Source of the DNA: Escherichia coli
GTDB taxonomy: Bacteria > Pseudomonadota > Gammaproteobacteria > Enterobacterales > Enterobacteriaceae
Assembly (NCBI RefSeq): GCF_044324785.1
Contig: NZ_CP172127.1
Reading direction: 5' to 3' (one strand)
DNA: 64,000 nt
Shown piece by piece: positions 55,050 to 62,588 of this stretch. The first letter of the stretch is position 1. Every line of letters starts with the position of its first letter. The position numbers and the translations under genes are program-made. The notes below the pieces were generated by a model. That model was not told where the DNA came from. It searched no databases and was given only the letters and a program-made list of their open reading frames with translations.

Positions 55050-55278
55050 ACATGTATTCCCGGTGAAAAAAGACAAAACCCCGCGCACCGGAAAGGTGGC
55101 GGGGGGATTCACGGAGATAATATCTGCCTGAAATTATTTGGAATGCAGGTATATGTGGCTGATTTGTATCAGCTAATGAGTACAGGTCTGAATCTAATCT
55201 GACAGTCCGCTCTGTGCCAGGAGCGGACATTGTTTTCCAACTATTACCTAAGCCTGCGAACCATCTCATCTTCACCCC

Positions 55279-56166
55279 TTAAATTCTCAATGTATCGATA
55301 ACCGCTCGTAGGGCGGGTGACACATTGCGGTGCGGATAATAGATATATGAACCCTCCAGGCGTTGGCTGTAGCATTGCAAAACTCTGATTAGCGCCCCCT
55401 GTTCTATATCATCAGACACTAATTCCTCCGGAACATAAGCCAGCCCCAGACCTAGCCTTGCGGCTTTGGCTTCCATATAACTGTCAGCAAAGGCCCATTG
55501 TCCCTGAGGCTGATGGGTGATCTTTTTACCGTCCTGATTGAGTTCCCAGGCATACAGACTGCCGTCGCCGAACTGGTAAGCGATGCAGGGATGACCTACT
55601 AAATCGGTGGGGGTTTGTGGAAATCCGTAGCGCTGAAAGTGCCCGGGCGTGCCGACAACAGCCATCTCCATATCGGGCGAAATGCGCACCGCAACCATAC
55701 CGCTATCCACTTCCGAGCCCAGACGTATACCGGCATCGAAGCGCTCAGTAATAATATCGACAAACCGGCTTTCGCTGATGAGCTCCAGCCGAATATCCGG
55801 GTATCGTTGTTTAAACACCGCCAGCTTCGGCAGCAGCACTTTATCAATGGCGTGCTGGCTCGCATTAATTCGGACCGTACCCGATGGTGTATGGCGATAA
55901 TGGGCCAGCGTGGCAAGCCCCATATCTAAGGCGTCAAATCCAGATTCGACGTTTCGATAGAGTAACTCGCCGGCATGGGTGAGCGATAACTTGCGCGTGG
56001 TGCGTACCAGAAGCTGCACGCCCAGTCGCTCTTCCAGCTCGCGCACTGCACGGCTAATTCCTGACTGCGCCAGGCCAAGCCTCTGCGCGGCGGCGGTAAA
56101 ACTCCCTTCTCGCACGACCTGCATAAACAGATAGAGATCGTTATAGTTTTCCCGTTTCGCCATCAT
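55279..56166 (-). CDS. LysR-family transcriptional regulator
   Basis: 295 aa with N-terminal HTH (FTAAAQRLGLAQSGISRAVRELEERLGVQLL) and LysR substrate-binding domain; divergent from the hydrolase gene. Confidence 0.8.
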   Translation of the reverse strand: MMAKRENYNDLYLFMQVVREGSFTAAAQRLGLAQSGISRAVRELEERLGVQLLVRTTRKLSLTHAGELLYRNVESGFDALDMGLATLAHYRHTPSGTVRINASQHAIDKVLLPKLAVFKQRYPDIRLELISESRFVDIITERFDAGIRLGSEVDSGMVAVRISPDMEMAVVGTPGHFQRYGFPQTPTDLVGHPCIAYQFGDGSLYAWELNQDGKKITHQPQGQWAFADSYMEAKAARLGLGLAYVPEELVSDDIEQGALIRVLQCYSQRLEGSYIYYPHRNVSPALRAVIDTLRI

Positions 56167-56333
56167 CCTTCCCCTGCTGCATCACAATTCAGAACAATAT
56201 GTTATTAATCTTAGCATTTTTTACCCTCTAATTAGCACTATTAATGCTAACTATAATGTGCGCGTTGCAACAAAGCACAGCAGTGTTATCCGTATGAAAC
56301 CAGTATCTGGCACATTTTATGAGGGGGATTTTG

Positions 56334-57470
56334 ATGACTGCTTTCACCCAAAAATTGACAGCCGCGATATCCACCATGCTGTTATGCGTATCATTAAGTG
56401 GAGTCACAAATATGAGTTACGCTGATACAACCAATCCGAACGCGCCCGTTTCGCAGGTCGAGAAATGGGATAAAACTTTTGCTGAGAGCACGAAAGTTGA
56501 TCACCGTAAGGTGACCTTTCCGAACCGGTACGGGATCACCTTAGTCGGGGATCTCTATATACCGAAGGATCGTGGCGATCGCAAGATGGCAGCAATTGCT
56601 GTTAGTGGCCCCTTCGGGGCGGTGAAAGAGCAATCCAGTGGCCTGTATGCGCAGACGCTGGCTGAACGGGGGTTTGTCACTCTGGCTTTTGACCCTTCAT
56701 ACACGGGGGAAAGCGGCGGCTACCCGCGAAACGTCGCATCTCCGGATATCAACACCGAGGATTTCAGCGCGGCGGTTGATTTCTTAGGCCTGCAAAAAGA
56801 GGTGGATCGCAACCGTATCGGGTTGCTCGGCATCTGCGGATGGGGTGGCATGGCCTTAAACGACGCCGCGATGGACACACGTGTCAAGGCGGTGGCGAGC
56901 AGCGTGATGTATGACATGAGCCGTGCAATGGGGCATGGCGTGGGCGATGGCAAAGACCGCTATACCACTGCCGATCGTCGTGCCGTATTGCAGTATTTGA
57001 ACATGCAGCGCTGGAAGGATGCTGAAAATGGCGCTTTCGCGCCAGGCGGGCATGATATTTACGTTGATGAGAAGGGCAACGTCACCGCTTCCGATCGTAT
57101 TTTACCGGAAACTTTGCCAGCGAATTCTAATCCGGTATTGAAAGAGTTCTTTGATTATTACCGCATGCCGCGTGGTTTCCATGCGCGTTCGGTCAACTCA
57201 ACCAGTGCCTGGAATGCAACCATGCCGCTGTCATTTATGAATATGCCGCTGCTGAGTTACGCTAATGAAGTTACTATCCCTACACTCATCGTGACCGGTG
57301 AAAAAGCCCATTCACGCTATTTTGCTGAAGATGCCTTTAAGGCAATCGGCAGCAAAGAGAAAGAGTTAGTGATTGTCCCCGAGGCAAACCATGTTGATCT
57401 GTACGACAACGTTGCGGGTAAGATCCCATTTGCCAAATTTGAGCAATTTTTCAAGGCAAACTTAAGATAA
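56334..57470 (+). CDS. Secreted alpha/beta-hydrolase-fold protein
   Basis: ATG 56334 with GAGGGGG Shine-Dalgarno; predicted signal peptide (MTAFTQKLTAAISTMLLCVSLSGVTNMSYA); GICGWGG nucleophile-elbow-like motif. Confidence 0.55.
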   Translation: MTAFTQKLTAAISTMLLCVSLSGVTNMSYADTTNPNAPVSQVEKWDKTFAESTKVDHRKVTFPNRYGITLVGDLYIPKDRGDRKMAAIAVSGPFGAVKEQSSGLYAQTLAERGFVTLAFDPSYTGESGGYPRNVASPDINTEDFSAAVDFLGLQKEVDRNRIGLLGICGWGGMALNDAAMDTRVKAVASSVMYDMSRAMGHGVGDGKDRYTTADRRAVLQYLNMQRWKDAENGAFAPGGHDIYVDEKGNVTASDRILPETLPANSNPVLKEFFDYYRMPRGFHARSVNSTSAWNATMPLSFMNMPLLSYANEVTIPTLIVTGEKAHSRYFAEDAFKAIGSKEKELVIVPEANHVDLYDNVAGKIPFAKFEQFFKANLR

Positions 57471-57646
57471 CCCGAAAGGTTTACCAGGCCACCTGTCGTA
57501 AACGGGTGGCTTTTAACTGCCTGGTGTGATGCAGAATATGCCGCATCTCCCTATATTCTCACCCAACTATTATGTCGTTATTCCCTGAATAACTTCTGAC
57601 CCGATTGCGCTTGAATCTGGCTGGTTCGATATTAAGGGGGCTAATA

Positions 57647-58840
57647 ATGTCCACTGTAAGTCTCAAACAATTATACGGAAAAACGCATGCATACTGGAGC
57701 GGCGTATTCGCCATGACGCTTTGCGTGTTTGTGCTGATCGCTTCTGAGTTTATGCCAGTCAGCCTGCTTACGCTCATTGCCCATGATTTGCACGTTACCG
57801 AAGGGCTGGCAGGGCAAGGAATTGCTGTCTCTGGTGCGCTGGCGGTGCTTACCAGTCTGACTATCTCCCGTATTACCGGAGACCTGAATCGAAAATATCT
57901 TCTGCTGGGGCTGACGGCCTTAATGGCCATATCGGGAATAGTTATCACCATAGCACCTGACTATCCGGTTTATATGCTGGGGAGGGCCCTGATTGGTATC
58001 GTCATTGGAGGGTTCTGGTCAATGTCGGCTGCAACCGCCATTCGGCTCGTGCCGAAGCAGCATGTCCCCCGCGCACTGGCAATTTTTAACGGCGGAAACG
58101 CACTGGCCACCGTTGTGGCAGCGCCACTTGGTAGCTATCTGGGGACAACCATCGGCTGGCGTGGGGCCTTTTTATGTCTGGTCCCCCTTGCGATAGCTGC
58201 GTTCATCTGGCAATGGGTCAGTCTGCCTCCGATGGAAAGTGATAAAACACAAAAGCTACAGAGATCTGTGCTTCGCCTGTTCAGCGTTGCCATCGTACCA
58301 ACGGGACTGCTGGCCTGCGGACTCTTCTTTATGGGACAGTTTGCTTTATTTACCTACGTGCGCCCCTTTCTGGAGAGCGTCACCAGAGTGGGACCTTCTG
58401 ATCTTTCTCTGATTTTGCTCGCAATAGGTGTAGCAGGTTTTGTCGGCACAATGATCGTCTCAACATTCCTGAACACCATATTTTATAAGACCTTAATAAT
58501 GATCCCGTTGCTTATGGCAGCGATTACCGGTGCGTTACTGCTGGTCGGACACCATATCTGGGCTGTTGCCGTTTTACTCAGCCTGTGGGGGCTACTTGCG
58601 ACAGCTGCGCCAACGGGGTGGTGGACATGGATAGCACGCGCGTTACCCGAAGATGCAGAGACGGGGGGAGGCCTCATGGTTGCAGTGATTCAGTTATCTA
58701 TTGCACTTGGTTCAACGGCTGGAGGTCTGGTATTCGACAGTCTGGGATGGAGAAGTGCTTTTGGTTTAAGTGGTTTGTTACTTCTGGGAGCGGTAGCGAT
58801 GACATGTGCCACATCCCGTCAAAACAGGAAGGCGCAGTAG
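57647..58840 (+). CDS. Major facilitator superfamily transporter
   Basis: ATG 57647 with AAGGGGG Shine-Dalgarno; about 12 predicted TM helices; MFS-like loop motif GRALIGIVIGGFWS. Confidence 0.8.
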   Translation: MSTVSLKQLYGKTHAYWSGVFAMTLCVFVLIASEFMPVSLLTLIAHDLHVTEGLAGQGIAVSGALAVLTSLTISRITGDLNRKYLLLGLTALMAISGIVITIAPDYPVYMLGRALIGIVIGGFWSMSAATAIRLVPKQHVPRALAIFNGGNALATVVAAPLGSYLGTTIGWRGAFLCLVPLAIAAFIWQWVSLPPMESDKTQKLQRSVLRLFSVAIVPTGLLACGLFFMGQFALFTYVRPFLESVTRVGPSDLSLILLAIGVAGFVGTMIVSTFLNTIFYKTLIMIPLLMAAITGALLLVGHHIWAVAVLLSLWGLLATAAPTGWWTWIARALPEDAETGGGLMVAVIQLSIALGSTAGGLVFDSLGWRSAFGLSGLLLLGAVAMTCATSRQNRKAQ

Positions 58841-61302
58841 CGCAATCCTTTTATTTCTGGCGTACGCTCTTTAAGGCATCCGGCTGAGAGGCTAATGATC
58901 ACTCCTCGCTCACAACGGACCTTCAGCTCAGCCGCTCCGGCCGCTTCATGCCATGAATGTACGCAGCCAGTCAGAATATTAAGGTGCGGATTTCAGTTCA
59001 CTTGTCAGCCCAGTGATACAGGACAGTAATGACCAACAATTTGGTATTGATACAACAAGTTGCGGCCCCGGTTCGTGGGGGAGATGAAACGACGGTAGCT
59101 GAAGTTACTGAAATGAAGAATTCAGAGAGACTGAATGATATGCCTCACCTTTAGTGAATAGTGTAAAAACGGGAGACTCTCACCCGAGATTATCCACTCA
59201 TGCTCAATGTATAATTTTCGTGCCCCTCACAGGTAAGAGCCGGATGCATTCGTTGTGTACGTTGCAGAATTGGTAACCGGGGACCCTGCAGTCTTTAACT
59301 CCGAGTCTTGTGCTGCTCATTTGCCACAAAATCCTGGTACGCCAGCTCAATCATTTCATTCAACAGTTTTTTTGGGGGGCACCACGACTTCGGGCAATAC
59401 TTTCAGGCTGTTTGTGGATTTTTCCGGACAGTTTCAGCGGAACGGAACCATCAGCACGTTCATCACGCCTTTTTTGTTGCTCCCGGGCACTTTTCAGTTC
59501 ATCCACAATATAGCTGCTCTTCTCGCATTTTTGCCGATTTTAAAAATGCGAACAAAACATCCGTACATGATGTACAGATTAAACTGCCAGGGACTGGTGT
59601 CAGAAAGCCTCCGGTTAGCCTGCTCTTTCCGGAATGTGCCGGTTATGAAAAACCGGAAATTCAGTCTCTGTTGTAAGATGTACCCTCTGATACTACGTTT
59701 TCGTTTTCTCTGTGTATTTAACTCACTGTATTTATTGTCTTTTTAAGCCTGACTGATATTCTCCGGTCATAGTGTGCCGGATAGACATCCCGTAACCTTC
59801 TCATTTTTATATAAAAATACCTGCACTGTCTTCAGCGCATCTGTCTCCTTTAAGTAAAAAATGTTTTCACGTATTGCTGTAAATTCATTTTAAATCAGTA
59901 TGTTATCCTGATATTGCTGTCTCCTGGTTTGATGCGTAATCGTTCTGCCTTTCTGGATGATTCTGGTGCTTCCGGGTGCATTCTCCTCTGCACATGCAAC
60001 AGTTCGTCATCGCCACGTGCCCAAAAAGCATATAAAAACGAATCGAATCTGATCGTTTTTTCAATCGTTTTTCACAGGAATTTCGTAGGGTGTTCTCCGC
60101 TATAGCCTCCATATTTGCTGTCTTTTTCTTCATAAATCGTATGCAATATAACCAGTCTGTCAAGACATCTTCCCTGCTGTTGAGGTGACGATCTCATTTC
60201 TGGTCTTTTCCGGGAGAGAGACGGTCAGATGAGCGAGCCGGATTTACTGCCAGAGGTACTCCCCGCGGCAGAAAATAGTGCTCCTGTTTCCGCAATCCGG
60301 GATCGGCAACGTCCCATGGTTAATGCCACTTGCAGCGTCAGGCACTGCAGGTTTACGTCGTGATCTGATTTCTTCTGCACTTATCCCGATCACGGAAGTT
60401 CCCCCTGCGCAGACATCGGTTCCTGCCGACATCTCACAATACCGCCAGGCTGTCATGCAGTAACACCCGCAATGCGGTCTGCGGTTTTAAGCGCACTCTC
60501 CTGTTTTCAGTGCACCGATAAGCGTTATAGAAAGTCTGGGGTGAGTTACTGAATGTCTGTTAAGTGGTGCCGTGGGTGGAGACTGCTTACTTTTCCACAG
60601 CAACTGCAGTCATTCAGGATGCTCAGGAGAGAATATGTCAACGCCACGAGCCGGGCCATTTTCATGCCAGCCAGTATATTTTCTACACTGATGCAGTCTG
60701 ATTTTCACCATTCCATCCTCACTGATTGTCGTGTTGTTTTGGGTCATCACCACAGCTTTCCGTTTCTCTTTTAATCGGTAACGCTCTCCTTTGATATTCA
60801 GCGTGGTTGAGTGATGCAGCAGTCAATCCAGGAGCGCTGTTGTCCGGCAACCACCATATCAACTTCTTCCCGGCGTGCCGGCGCTGGTATCCAGGCCGGG
60901 TTTCGAAGCGAAGCGTTCCTGACGGACTCATTGACATCCGGGCCGGATGTAGTCATGCAGCATGGAACGTCCGCCCGTATACACTGACGGCGTCCGGCCG
61001 TGTACAGAGATCGGTAAAATTCGTTACTACAACTGTTCCTGAATATCTGACGAAGAAACATTCAGCAATAACATCCGGCCGTGTACATCTCTTTTGCGGT
61101 GCAGGGAGCACTGTCGCCATGTACTTATTGTCACCAGGGTGAGGCATGTACCGCAGCATGCCAGCTCAGCAATGACAGGATGCCCTTAAGACATCCGTCA
61201 TGGCTCAGTATGATGACGACGAACACGCTCTGCAGGTGAGCATGCAGGGCCGGGGGTATCATCATTTCCGTATTTTGCCGCACCTTCCGGAAACAACCGG
61301 CA

Positions 61303-61920
61303 TCAGTTACGGTTACCGTCAACCGTTGTGCGGTATGCCAGGAGCACGTACTGATCCATCAGATCCGTCAGTGCTGCGTTCTGCTTCTGACGGTCGATGA
61401 TCCATTCCCCCAGCTCTTTTTCTGATTTCCGTTTCAGGTTCTCCGTCCAGTCGTCAAGGCTGTTTCCGGTCATTAAATCAAGCCAGCAAAGCCAGACCAG
61501 TTTGAGGCGCAACTCCGTGCCACCAAACTGACGGAAGAGGCTGATCAGTTTATTTGCCAGAGAACGCTGCCTCAGACGTTCACATTCAGACAGCAGAATC
61601 CCTTCCAGCATCGGATGATGAACCAGCAGATGTTCGCTGGTGCATAAGTTCACCACCAGATCATCATCCAGGGGCGGCGTGGCCCGTTTGTCAGAGCCAT
61701 AAATCAGCCGGTGCAGACTCCGGGGTACGATGGCAATCTTCGGTTTTTCACCATTGAATGACACCCACCCGGGCGTCAGATTATGGAAGTAGTGGATATT
61801 CGGATGACACACGCCCCAGGATACGGCGTGCCGGGTGAAGCCGGTCAGCCATTTCTGGTAGCTTTCGTGGAGCAGCTCGTAACGGGTCTGATACTGTGGT
61901 TTCATTTTCATATTCCTCAC
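61303..61920 (-). CDS. Inovirus Gp2-like protein (YfjJ/YagK family), island-associated
   Basis: 205-aa ORF adjacent to alpA, as in CP4-57-like elements; assignment from recall. Confidence 0.5.
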   Translation of the reverse strand: MRNMKMKPQYQTRYELLHESYQKWLTGFTRHAVSWGVCHPNIHYFHNLTPGWVSFNGEKPKIAIVPRSLHRLIYGSDKRATPPLDDDLVVNLCTSEHLLVHHPMLEGILLSECERLRQRSLANKLISLFRQFGGTELRLKLVWLCWLDLMTGNSLDDWTENLKRKSEKELGEWIIDRQKQNAALTDLMDQYVLLAYRTTVDGNRN

Positions 61921-61998
61921 GGGGGATAACAGGCAGCAGAGTGCCGCCGGCAGGCCGGAGATTGCGTCTGCTGTGGGCGAAGGGCCAGTGGTTAAAAA

Positions 61999-62205
61999 TT
62001 ACGGACGGGACTGTGCAATACGCGCCTGCAGCCAGGCTTCCACTTCACTTTTCAGCCAGCGGGAGCTGCGGCCGAGTTTGATGGGAGCCGGAAAGGCCCC
62101 ATCCTTGATGAGCTTGTAAAACCACTTATCGGTCAGGCCGGTCAGCTGAGTGATAAACGTCATATCGACCATCTGGTCATCCATCAGCGAAACTGGGGTG
62201 GTCAT
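61999..62205 (-). CDS. alpA: AlpA-family phage/island transcriptional regulator (excisionase-like HTH)
   Basis: 68 aa; FITQLTGLTDKWFYKLIKDGAFPAPIKLGRSSRWLKSEVEAWL matches the recalled AlpA family. Confidence 0.8.
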   Translation of the reverse strand: MTTPVSLMDDQMVDMTFITQLTGLTDKWFYKLIKDGAFPAPIKLGRSSRWLKSEVEAWLQARIAQSRP

Positions 62206-62588
62206 AAAAATCTTCTCCGGATGTTGTTAATCTCAGCCGGCGTTGATGATGAAAACAACGCACCACCTTCACCGGCATAACAACCGGGGAGAAACGTAAA
62301 AAATCAGTAGGGGAATATTCCTGCCAGGAGAGAAACTGTTGTGTACAGGCAATACAGGTTGTCTGTTTTGTCAGTGAAGCCGGTATAAACGGAAGATGAT
62401 TTTGTGTTGCCGGAATATGGGATGGCGTTTTGCCGTGACAGGATCAGTATTTTCAGTGATGATTATTACTGTGCAGGGGAGTACCGGAGATAAACCACGC
62501 CCTGTACCTGCCAGAGCGGAGGTTTGTATTGACTGAACGGAAGATAAAGCGAGGTAAACACTGTTGCGGTGAGCGGAGAAGACTGAGA

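What the first reader, a model, noticed from the sequence alone, without database searches (positions are those of the whole stretch)
58841..61302. 2.5 kb ORF-poor stretch inside the island with short repeats and palindromes
Between the MFS transporter gene and the Gp2-like gene no frame gives a convincing protein; the six-frame ORFs here are short and compositionally odd. The stretch contains ccggccgtgtaca twice (near 60985 and 61075) and the palindrome catccgggccggatg (near 60930). It may be decayed island genes or may encode small RNAs or regulatory structures.
Basis: seen in the sequence. Interest (0 to 1): 0.4.

Follow-up and report, generated by a model that had tools for sequence, protein, structure and literature searches.

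The report
Decayed island genes and IS21 fossil
The 2.5-kb gene-poor stretch is ordinary genomic debris inside an E. coli genomic island: a backbone gene gutted by a 936-bp deletion, its orphaned AT-rich upstream spacer, and the stump of an old IS21-type insertion sequence. There is no evidence of a structured RNA.

Summary
Window 58841-61302 has no intact credible gene, GC falls to about 35-44% in the middle, and both the 14-mer TCCGGCCGTGTACA (60993, 61074) and the palindrome catccgggccggatg (60936-60950) are present.

The stretch resolves into known kinds of relic:
- **Dead backbone gene (59295-59531, minus strand).** This is the remnant of a 391-aa island gene that is intact at the same position in other E. 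coli. Here it has a 936-bp deletion, a 1-bp frameshift and an early stop.
- **Spacer (59532-60228).** This is the AT-rich, ORF-less region upstream of that gene. It varies about as much as the neighbouring gene and IS pseudogene.
- **Unidentified segment (60229-60635).** It is variable and rich in indels.
- **IS21-family fossil (60636-60981, minus strand).** It keeps the right terminus, IstB aa 214-265 and IstA aa 85-133, with stops and a ~1.4-kb internal deletion.
- **Native 3' flank (60977-61302)** of the neighbouring 205-aa gene.

The palindrome is decayed IstA codons. The 14-mer pair is more than chance but is not kept in a 95%-identical paralogue.

Rfam, ARAGORN, fold z-scores and covariation give no support for an RNA. 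RefSeq already annotates both gene fragments as pseudogenes. Interest is low.

The parts
58841..58905 (.). 3' flank of the cargo MFS-transporter gene. The cargo/backbone junction lies at about 58902-58906.
   Evidence: Similarity to other island copies starts at query positions 62-66, which is window 58902-58906.
58906..59294 (.). Island-backbone DNA downstream of the 391-aa gene. It carries a 34-bp insertion (59014-59047) relative to the paralogue L005.
   Evidence: About 90% identical to L005 7497-7143. No conserved ORF and no Rfam hit.
59295..59531 (-). Pseudogene remnant of the 391-aa island-backbone gene. It keeps the start codon and the last ~70 codons. The 936-bp deletion joint is at 59502|59503, with a 1-bp frameshift at 59379/59380. 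The reading frame from the retained ATG gives MREEQLYCG and then a stop.
   Evidence: The intact gene is L005 5967-7142 (WP_032155386.1) and its equivalents in L002, L004, L009, L010 and L011. PGAP annotates 59295-59506 as 'frameshifted; incomplete'. The deletion joint is present in 328 of 5426 genomes.
59532..60228 (.). AT-rich ORF-less spacer upstream of the dead gene, presumed to be its promoter/leader region. A sigma-70-like TTGACA-16-TACGAT lies on the minus strand at 60163-60136.
   Evidence: The surrounding 1.1-kb block (59530-60650) is present and unannotated in 2092 of 5426 E. coli genomes. In five alleles 5.8% of sites vary, against 6.5% in the adjacent gene and 4.6% in the IstB fossil. 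No ORF is conserved across copies because of 2-bp indels.
60229..60635 (.). Variable segment of normal GC content and unknown origin, lying between the spacer and the IS insertion point. Its ORFs starting MSEPDLL... (60229) and at 60278 are not conserved.
   Evidence: 15.5% of sites vary, and the clades differ by 2-bp, 43-bp and 12-bp indels. There is no Pfam hit, and tblastn finds only the same module.
60636..60981 (-). IS21-family insertion-sequence fossil. The right terminus is TGTCAACGCCACGAG at 60636. IstB aa 214-265 lies at 60843-60688 with an internal stop and a lost stop codon. IstA aa ~85-133 lies at 60981-60839 with stops and frameshifts. About 1.4 kb between them is deleted, and the left end is missing.
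   Evidence: tblastn gives IstB E=1e-18 at 71% identity and IstA E=3e-4. DNA identity to IS21 is 85% and 82%. PGAP annotates an 'AAA family ATPase' fragment.
60936..60950 (.). On the minus strand it is the decayed IstA codons YIRPGC (IS21: YIQPKR).
   Evidence: tblastn alignment. The homologous site in L011 reads acgtccagactgaatgtag and is not palindromic.
60970..61087 (.). Three copies of TCCGNCCGTNTACA, at 60970 (2 mismatches, inside IstA codons YTGG), 60993 and 61074 (both exact).
   Evidence: In the 95%-identical paralogue L003 the two exact sites read gcccggtcatgtgca and tccagccgtgtact.
60977..61302 (.). Native 3' flank of the 205-aa gene. It is joined to the IstA stump by a deletion with ATA microhomology. 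It contains the start of a 66-aa PGAP ORF (61200-61400, plus strand) that runs antisense into the 205-aa gene.
   Evidence: 95% identical to L005 4317-4000 and 93% identical to the IS-free island L012 from 61159. The junction was compared with L003 and L011.
61303..61920 (-). Neighbouring intact 205-aa gene, given for context. It is paired with the AlpA gene at 61999-62205.
   Evidence: ORF list. AlpA matches Pfam at E=3e-9. A 61%-identical homologue sits next to AlpA in Citrobacter koseri L013.

Best explanation
The stretch is non-functional relic DNA in the backbone of a CP4-type E. coli genomic island that also carries Ag43, a GTPase, DUF932, an antirestriction gene, RadC, CbtA/CbeA and AlpA. 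Read along the minus strand, the ancestral order was AlpA, the 205-aa gene, an IS21-family element, a long upstream region, a 391-aa gene of unknown function (possibly with a ribbon-helix-helix C-terminus), and the GTPase. Three things are shown here. First, the IS21-type element decayed early: it lost about 1.4 kb internally and its left end, and it gained stops. Because the same fossil is shared by all sampled island paralogues that carry this module, I infer that the decay predates their divergence. Second, in the lineage of this window a further deletion with ATA microhomology fused the IstA stump to the 3' flank of the 205-aa gene. Third, a 936-bp deletion plus a 1-bp frameshift destroyed the 391-aa gene. 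It is inferred, not shown, that the AT-rich 0.7-kb spacer was that gene's promoter and leader and is now orphaned. The palindrome and short repeats are by-products of decayed IstA codons and of the deletion joint, not functional motifs.
For: - The window is 100% identical to strain A20, whose RefSeq annotation already marks the pseudogene fragments.
- An intact 1149-1176-bp gene sits at the same position in L002-L005 and L009-L011, and the block alignment defines the 936-bp gap and the frameshift.
- The junction-spanning query is found whole in 328 genomes, but only up to the joint in most of the other ~1765 genomes that match.
- IS21 homology to IstA, IstB and the right terminus is clear.
- The spacer, the gene and the IstB fossil vary at similar rates: 5.8%, 6.5% and 4.6% variable sites.
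- No RNA signal was found.
- The repeats and palindrome are not conserved in paralogues.
Against: - About 1.1 kb (59532-60635) has no identified origin, yet it is retained in 2092 genomes.
- Fold z-scores on the minus strand across 59441-59940 run consistently at -1.5 to -2.6.
- An invariant promoter-like site exists, so a transcript from the spacer cannot be excluded.
- The exact 14-mer pair is statistically non-random, and its origin, proposed here to be a short conversion or templated patch, is only inferred.
- No expression data could be consulted.
Confidence: 0.85

Rival explanations
1. The AT-rich spacer (59532-60228) encodes an unannotated minus-strand regulatory RNA. It would be either a long structured 5' leader of the 391-aa gene or an sRNA of about 300 nt running from the promoter-like site at 60163-60136 to the hairpin and T-run at 59839-59812. 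It would remain functional even where the gene is dead.
For: - The -35 and -10 hexamers are invariant in all seven copies.
- A terminator-like hairpin lies on the same strand.
- Minus-strand z-scores run at -1.6 to -2.6 over about 500 nt.
- The block is kept without annotation in 2092 genomes.
- Long ORF-less upstream regions also precede the analogous gene in L012 (1.1 kb) and in Citrobacter koseri (0.5 kb).
Against: - Rfam gives no hit.
- The alifold structure has 2 compensatory pairs against 13 pairs broken in some copy.
- The number of promoter-like and terminator-like sites is no higher than in shuffles.
- Variability equals that of the adjacent gene and of a bona fide IS pseudogene.
- The L012 and C. 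koseri spacers share no sequence with this one.
- Neither exact core motif tried occurs in any of 100,044 species-representative genomes.
Confidence: 0.1
2. The 14-mer repeats and the palindrome at 60930-61090 are protein-binding sites, for example the multiple terminal transposase-binding repeats of an IS21-family left end, or operators for AlpA or the 205-aa protein.
For: - Three copies lie within 118 bp and nowhere else in 64 kb, against 0.30 expected.
- On the minus strand they begin TGTA..., loosely like the TGT... ends of IS21-family elements.
- They lie just upstream of the IstA stump.
Against: - The left ends of IS21, ISEc62 and IS100 examined here (TGTCAGCGCC..., TGTCACGAACGG...) do not resemble the motif.
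- The first copy is IstA coding sequence at aa 85-88, about 350 bp inside where a left end would be.
- The two exact copies read gcccggtcatgtgca and tccagccgtgtact in the 95%-identical paralogue and diverge further in L011.
- The sites lie downstream of the AlpA/205-aa operon, not upstream of it.
Confidence: 0.04
3. The spacer is a DNA-level transfer or replication element, such as an oriT or a single-strand promoter, serving the co-oriented leading-region-like genes (DUF932, antirestriction, RadC) downstream.
For: - The spacer is AT-rich and non-coding.
- It sits upstream of a long co-oriented array that resembles plasmid leading-region genes.
Against: - There are no long inverted repeats; the longest local ones are imperfect 19-nt arms.
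- Fold z-scores are far weaker than I would expect for a long single-strand hairpin promoter (the expectation is my own knowledge, not a tool result).
- The one MOBP-like ATCCTG string (about 59904) is TACCTTG in the other copies.
- No relaxase was identified, and the module is essentially absent from plasmids and phages.
Confidence: 0.02

Closest known systems
IS21-family insertion sequences (IS21, ISEc62, IS100)
   Same: Window 60636-60981 keeps the IS21-type right terminus (…CGTGGCGTTGACA), the C-terminal 52 aa of the IstB helper ATPase (71% identical) and IstA aa ~85-133. DNA identity to IS21 is 82-85%.
   Different: It is only a 346-bp stump of an element whose istA and istB genes alone span about 2 kb in the intact copy. 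It has an internal ~1.4-kb deletion, in-frame stops, a lost istB stop codon and no left end. It is immobile and shared by all island paralogues sampled that carry this module.
Deletion and frameshift pseudogenes of accessory-island genes, as already flagged by NCBI PGAP
   Same: An intact orthologue exists in other strains at the same position, and disabling lesions are present here. RefSeq annotates 59295-59506 as 'frameshifted; incomplete'.
   Different: The parent gene (391 aa) has no family assignment in Pfam or NCBIfam. It shows no third-codon-position excess of variation.
CP4-6, CP4-44 and CP4-57-type cryptic-prophage-like islands of E. coli K-12
   Same: Same backbone gene set: CbtA/CbeA-type toxin-antitoxin, DUF987, RadC/JAB, antirestriction, DUF932, GTPase, Ag43, AlpA and YagK/YfjJ. 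K-12 CP4-6 aligns at 64-76% across the toxin-antitoxin to GTPase part.
   Different: K-12 CP4-6 has no counterpart of 58841-61302. CP4-44 and CP4-57 were not compared here; including them rests on my own knowledge.

Membership tests
IS21-family insertion sequence | IstA (DDE transposase) coding sequence | tested here: met
   Partial only: aa ~85-133 at 60981-60839. tblastn gives E=3e-4 and 1e-3 in two frames, with stops. DNA identity is 82% over 148 bp (E=1.6e-34).
IS21-family insertion sequence | IstB (AAA+ helper ATPase) coding sequence downstream of istA | tested here: met
   Partial only: aa 214-265 at 60843-60688, 71% identical, E=1e-18, with one internal stop. PGAP annotates an 'AAA family ATPase' fragment.
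IS21-family insertion sequence | Terminal inverted repeats at both ends (TGT...ACA) | tested here: not met
   The right terminus is present at 60636 and matches IS21's CGTGGCGTTGACA. No left terminus was found; the IstA stump is fused directly to unrelated flank at ~60977-60983.
IS21-family insertion sequence | Complete istA and istB reading frames (a potentially active element) | tested here: not met
   About 1.4 kb between IstA aa 133 and IstB aa 214 is missing, and stops are present. It qualifies only as a fossil.
Pseudogene of the 391-aa island-backbone gene | Intact orthologue at the syntenic position in other genomes | tested here: met
   CDSs of 1149-1176 bp lie between the same spacer and flank in L002, L003/L005, L004, L009, L010 and L011. 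The alleles are 96% identical in mean column identity.
Pseudogene of the 391-aa island-backbone gene | Disabling lesions in this copy | tested here: met
   A 936-bp deletion (L005 5998-6933), a 1-bp deletion at 59379/59380, small indels at the start, and a stop after 9 codons.
Known structured RNA (any Rfam 15 family) | Covariance-model score at or above the family's gathering threshold | tested here: not met
   Only two sub-threshold matches at E 0.45 and 0.67 (27.9 bits against 37; 20.2 against 40). One lies inside the IstB fossil and the other is outside the region.
Novel conserved structured RNA | Base pairs supported by compensatory changes across homologues | tested here: inconclusive
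   With seven copies, 2 pairs are compensatory, 8 have one-sided changes and 13 are broken out of 112 pairs. Diversity is too low for a firm negative, and no homologues were found outside E. coli.
CRISPR array (raised by the sub-threshold Rfam hit CRISPR-DR13) | Several regularly spaced copies of the direct repeat | tested here: not met
   A single copy at 60679-60708 inside the IstB fossil. No tandem or direct-repeat family is found there.
   No Pfam hit even at E<=10, and no NCBIfam hit. BLASTP against the island's own YagK/YfjJ-type protein gives E=1.2.

The most novel reading that the evidence does not exclude
The 0.7-1.1-kb unannotated block (59532-60635) is carried unchanged in length by about 2,090 E. 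coli genomes. It could encode an unrecognised minus-strand regulatory RNA or long leader, starting near 60129, that controls the island's co-oriented 391-aa gene to GTPase array and persists even where the 391-aa gene is deleted.
Probability: 0.1. Interest if true: 0.35.

Novelty: already known. Interest (0 to 1): 0.08.

Why it matters
It matters little biologically. The result shows that an apparently odd, ORF-poor 2.5 kb is explained by routine island decay: one deletion pseudogene, one IS fossil and orphaned intergenic DNA. It should therefore not be pursued as a candidate for a new RNA or system.

Minor practical points:
- The 936-bp deletion joint marks a lineage, being present in 328 of 5426 complete genomes, including strain 83972.
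- The 1.1-kb unannotated block and the family-less 391-aa and 205-aa backbone proteins remain uncharacterised parts of a very common E. coli island module.

Tried and rejected
- **Rfam.** An E-value scan of 56000-64000 gave only two chance-level hits.
- **tRNA, tmRNA and tandem repeats.** ARAGORN found none, and TRF found nothing relevant.
- **Hidden proteins.** The eight largest ORFs scanned against Pfam gave nothing. tblastn of the 60229-60463 ORFs against plasmids returned only the same module.
- **'Ultraconserved non-coding element'.** The spacer core looked 94-100% conserved. The adjacent gene (96%) and the IstB pseudogene are equally conserved, so I rejected this.
- **Conserved small ORFs in the spacer.** The 86-aa minus-strand ORF and a 28-aa ORF are both broken by 2-bp indels in L003 and L008.
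- **Homologues outside E. coli for covariation.** Two exact-motif scans of 100,044 species-representative genomes gave 0 hits. The phage collection gave none and plasmids gave 3.
- **14-mers as IS21-family left-end repeats.** The ends of IS21, ISEc62 and IS100 do not resemble them.
- **oriT or single-strand promoter.** There are no long hairpins, and the single ATCCTG string is not conserved.
- **K-12 CP4-6 counterpart, including the sRNA EyeA.** There is no similarity to the region.
- **Literature.** One search on this island module returned nothing relevant.
- **Technical note.** run_python saw only some of the fetched loci, so L002-L004 and L008-L011 were analysed through DNA alignment and get_sequence.

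Full report
**Context.** The window is E. coli. Region 58841-61302 is 100% identical to strain A20 (NZ_CP028755.1) and several other genomes, and some part of it matches 3359 of 5426 complete E. coli genomes. A20's RefSeq annotation places it in a CP4-type genomic island next to yghD and the gsp operon. On one side lie DUF4942, CbtA/CbeA, DUF987, JAB/RadC, an antirestriction gene, DUF932, Ag43, a GTPase, a LysR regulator, an alpha/beta hydrolase and an MFS transporter. On the other side lie a 205-aa hypothetical gene, AlpA, a 263-aa hypothetical gene, Hha and YagK/YfjJ-type genes. Within the region PGAP annotates only three features: a 'hypothetical protein, frameshifted, incomplete' fragment (window 59295-59506, minus strand), an 'AAA family ATPase' fragment (60688-60822, minus strand), and a 66-aa ORF (61200-61400) that overlaps the next gene.

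**Observation check.**
- No convincing ORF exists, and the eight largest ORFs have no Pfam domain.
- GC drops to 0.345-0.445 between 59700 and 60200.
- TCCGGCCGTGTACA occurs exactly at 60993 and 61074, with a degenerate third copy at 60970. It occurs nowhere else in 64 kb, against 0.30 expected by chance.
- The palindrome catccgggccggatg is at 60936-60950.

**The dead backbone gene.**
- In paralogous or orthologous islands of other strains, an intact 1149-1176-bp gene (382-391 aa) lies on the minus strand exactly where the window has 59295-59531. Examples are CUVET23-CCU17, AVS0662, 11899A, EH01-18-04-A, ATCC 11775 and CRE1493.
- Block alignment to L005 shows window 59380-59502 matching L005 7056-6934, and then window 59503 onward matching L005 5997 onward. 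So 936 bp (L005 5998-6933) are missing.
- One base is also missing at 59379/59380, small indels sit at the start, and the frame from the retained ATG reads MREEQLYCG and then stops.
- A 151-bp query spanning the joint is found whole in 328 of 5426 genomes, including strain 83972. Most of the other ~1765 genomes that match do so only up to the joint.
- The parent protein has no Pfam or NCBIfam family. Its homologues are all 'hypothetical' proteins from E. coli, with ~30%-identical relatives in Citrobacter and Cronobacter.
- Its C-terminus aligns (E=5e-4) with a 305-aa positional analogue in an IS-free island variant (L012). That analogue's C-terminus gives a sub-threshold ribbon-helix-helix hit (RHH_1, E=0.01). 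The RHH assignment is therefore only a weak inference.

**The IS21-family fossil.**
- tblastn with IS21 IstA and IstB from a plasmid copy (L006) finds IstB aa 214-265 at 60843-60688 (71% identity, E=1e-18, one stop). It finds IstA aa ~85-133 at 60981-60839 in two frames with stops.
- DNA identity to IS21 is 85% and 82%, and the ~1.4 kb between the two pieces is absent.
- The IS21 right terminus is preserved. On the minus strand ...CTCGTGGCGTTGACA ends at 60636.
- No left terminus is present. In L010 and L011 the IstA stump extends further (to aa ~40), and in L009 a later IS100 has inserted into it with a CATTG duplication.
- In the window the stump ends at ...cccgtata and joins the 3' flank of the 205-aa gene (L003...gccatacagacgg...) across ATA microhomology.
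- The fossil is present in every sampled copy of this module, so I infer it is old. The IS-free variant L012 shows what the flank looks like without it.

- On the minus strand the palindrome encodes YIRPGC, the decayed equivalent of IS21 IstA YIQPKR. The same site in L011 (acgtccagactgaatgtag) is not palindromic.
- The degenerate 14-mer copy at 60970 is IstA codons YTGG.
- The two exact copies lie in the native flank, but in the 95%-identical L003 they read gcccggtcatgtgca and tccagccgtgtact. They are still more different in L011.
- The pair is therefore non-random but lineage-specific. A short conversion or templated patch near the deletion joint is my inference for its origin.
- The ends of IS21, ISEc62 and IS100 do not resemble the motif.

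**The unexplained 1.1 kb (59532-60635).**
- This block occurs at full length, and without annotation, in 2092 genomes. It is essentially absent from plasmids (3 records) and absent from phages.
- Two of its invariant core motifs occur in none of 100,044 species-representative genomes.
- The AT-rich part (59532-60228) first looked unusually conserved, at 94-100% in 50-nt windows. In the same five alleles, however, it has 5.8% variable sites against 6.5% for the 391-aa gene and 4.6% for the IstB pseudogene piece. The conservation therefore reflects recent common ancestry or recombination, not detectable constraint.
- The distal part (60229-60635) is more variable (15.5%) and carries 2-, 12- and 43-bp indels that destroy its ORFs.
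- No small ORF is conserved.

**RNA tests.**
- Rfam gives nothing near threshold.
- Fold z-scores on the minus strand across 59441-59940 are modest, at -1.5 to -2.6.
- RNAalifold structures have 2 compensatory pairs against 13 broken pairs.
- A good sigma-70-like site (TTGACA-16-TACGAT, minus strand, 60163-60136) is invariant in all copies, but promoter-like sites are no more frequent than in shuffles.
- Long ORF-less regions also precede the analogous gene in L012 (1.1 kb) and in a Citrobacter koseri island (0.5 kb), without sequence similarity.
- The most economical reading is that the block was the promoter and leader region of the now-dead gene, plus the unidentifiable remains of the IS21 target.

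**Comparison with known things.** Everything identified belongs to known kinds: an IS21-family fossil and a deletion pseudogene, both already flagged in RefSeq, inside a CP4-type island. K-12 CP4-6 shares only the toxin-antitoxin to GTPase portion (64-76%) and has no counterpart of this region, including its sRNA EyeA locus.

**Verdict.** The residual uncertainty is a possible transcript from the orphaned spacer. I give that about 10%, and it would be of modest interest. Overall interest is 0.08.

Noticed in passing
window 61303-61920 (-) and 61999-62205 (-): The 205-aa gene has no Pfam or NCBIfam family and no similarity to the island's YagK/YfjJ protein. It is nevertheless consistently paired with AlpA, including a 61%-identical homologue next to AlpA in a Citrobacter koseri island (L013 4602-5498). 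It looks like an uncharacterised conserved AlpA partner.
   Followed up: partly
L005 5967-7142; L002 4394-5566; L010 1323-2474; L011 1326-2474: The intact 391-aa backbone gene has no known family. Its 74 variable sites among five alleles are spread 26/24/24 over codon positions, so there is no third-position excess. That is unusual for a gene kept intact in more than 1,700 genomes; it could reflect relaxed selection or recombination blocks.
   Followed up: partly
window 61200-61400 (+): A 66-aa ORF annotated by PGAP (WP_096980503.1) runs antisense into the 3' end of the 205-aa gene. It is preserved as a 65-aa ORF in the divergent island L012 (3042-3239). It is probably a shadow ORF, but this was not tested.
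   Followed up: no
window 59502|59503: The 936-bp deletion allele is present in 328 of 5426 complete E. coli genomes, including the asymptomatic-bacteriuria strain 83972 and the mouse isolate M8. It could serve as a lineage marker.
   Followed up: partly
window 55050-58905: The cargo block (LysR regulator, alpha/beta hydrolase, MFS transporter) lies between the GTPase gene and the dead 391-aa gene. In ATCC 11775 (L010) the two backbone genes are only 84 bp apart. In other strains different cargo occupies this slot, such as dynamin-family, DUF2971/GNAT or TonB/ABC transporter genes.
   Followed up: partly
window 57453-57512 (+): A sub-threshold Rfam match to NsiR4 (20.2 bits against a gathering score of 40) is a GC-rich hairpin overlapping the 3' end of the alpha/beta-hydrolase gene (stop at 57470). 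It is most likely that gene's terminator.
   Followed up: no
NZ_CP079635.1 9440-10509 (hit H131): A copy of the 1.1-kb block (87.7% identical) sits on a 1.04-Mb record labelled as a Klebsiella pneumoniae plasmid. That is an odd host and replicon for an otherwise E. coli chromosomal module.
   Followed up: no
L009 3908-5870 and L002 7064-8866: In several strains an IS100 has inserted into the older IstA stump, with target duplication CATTG. The result is nested IS21-family elements, one IS inside an IS fossil.
   Followed up: partly
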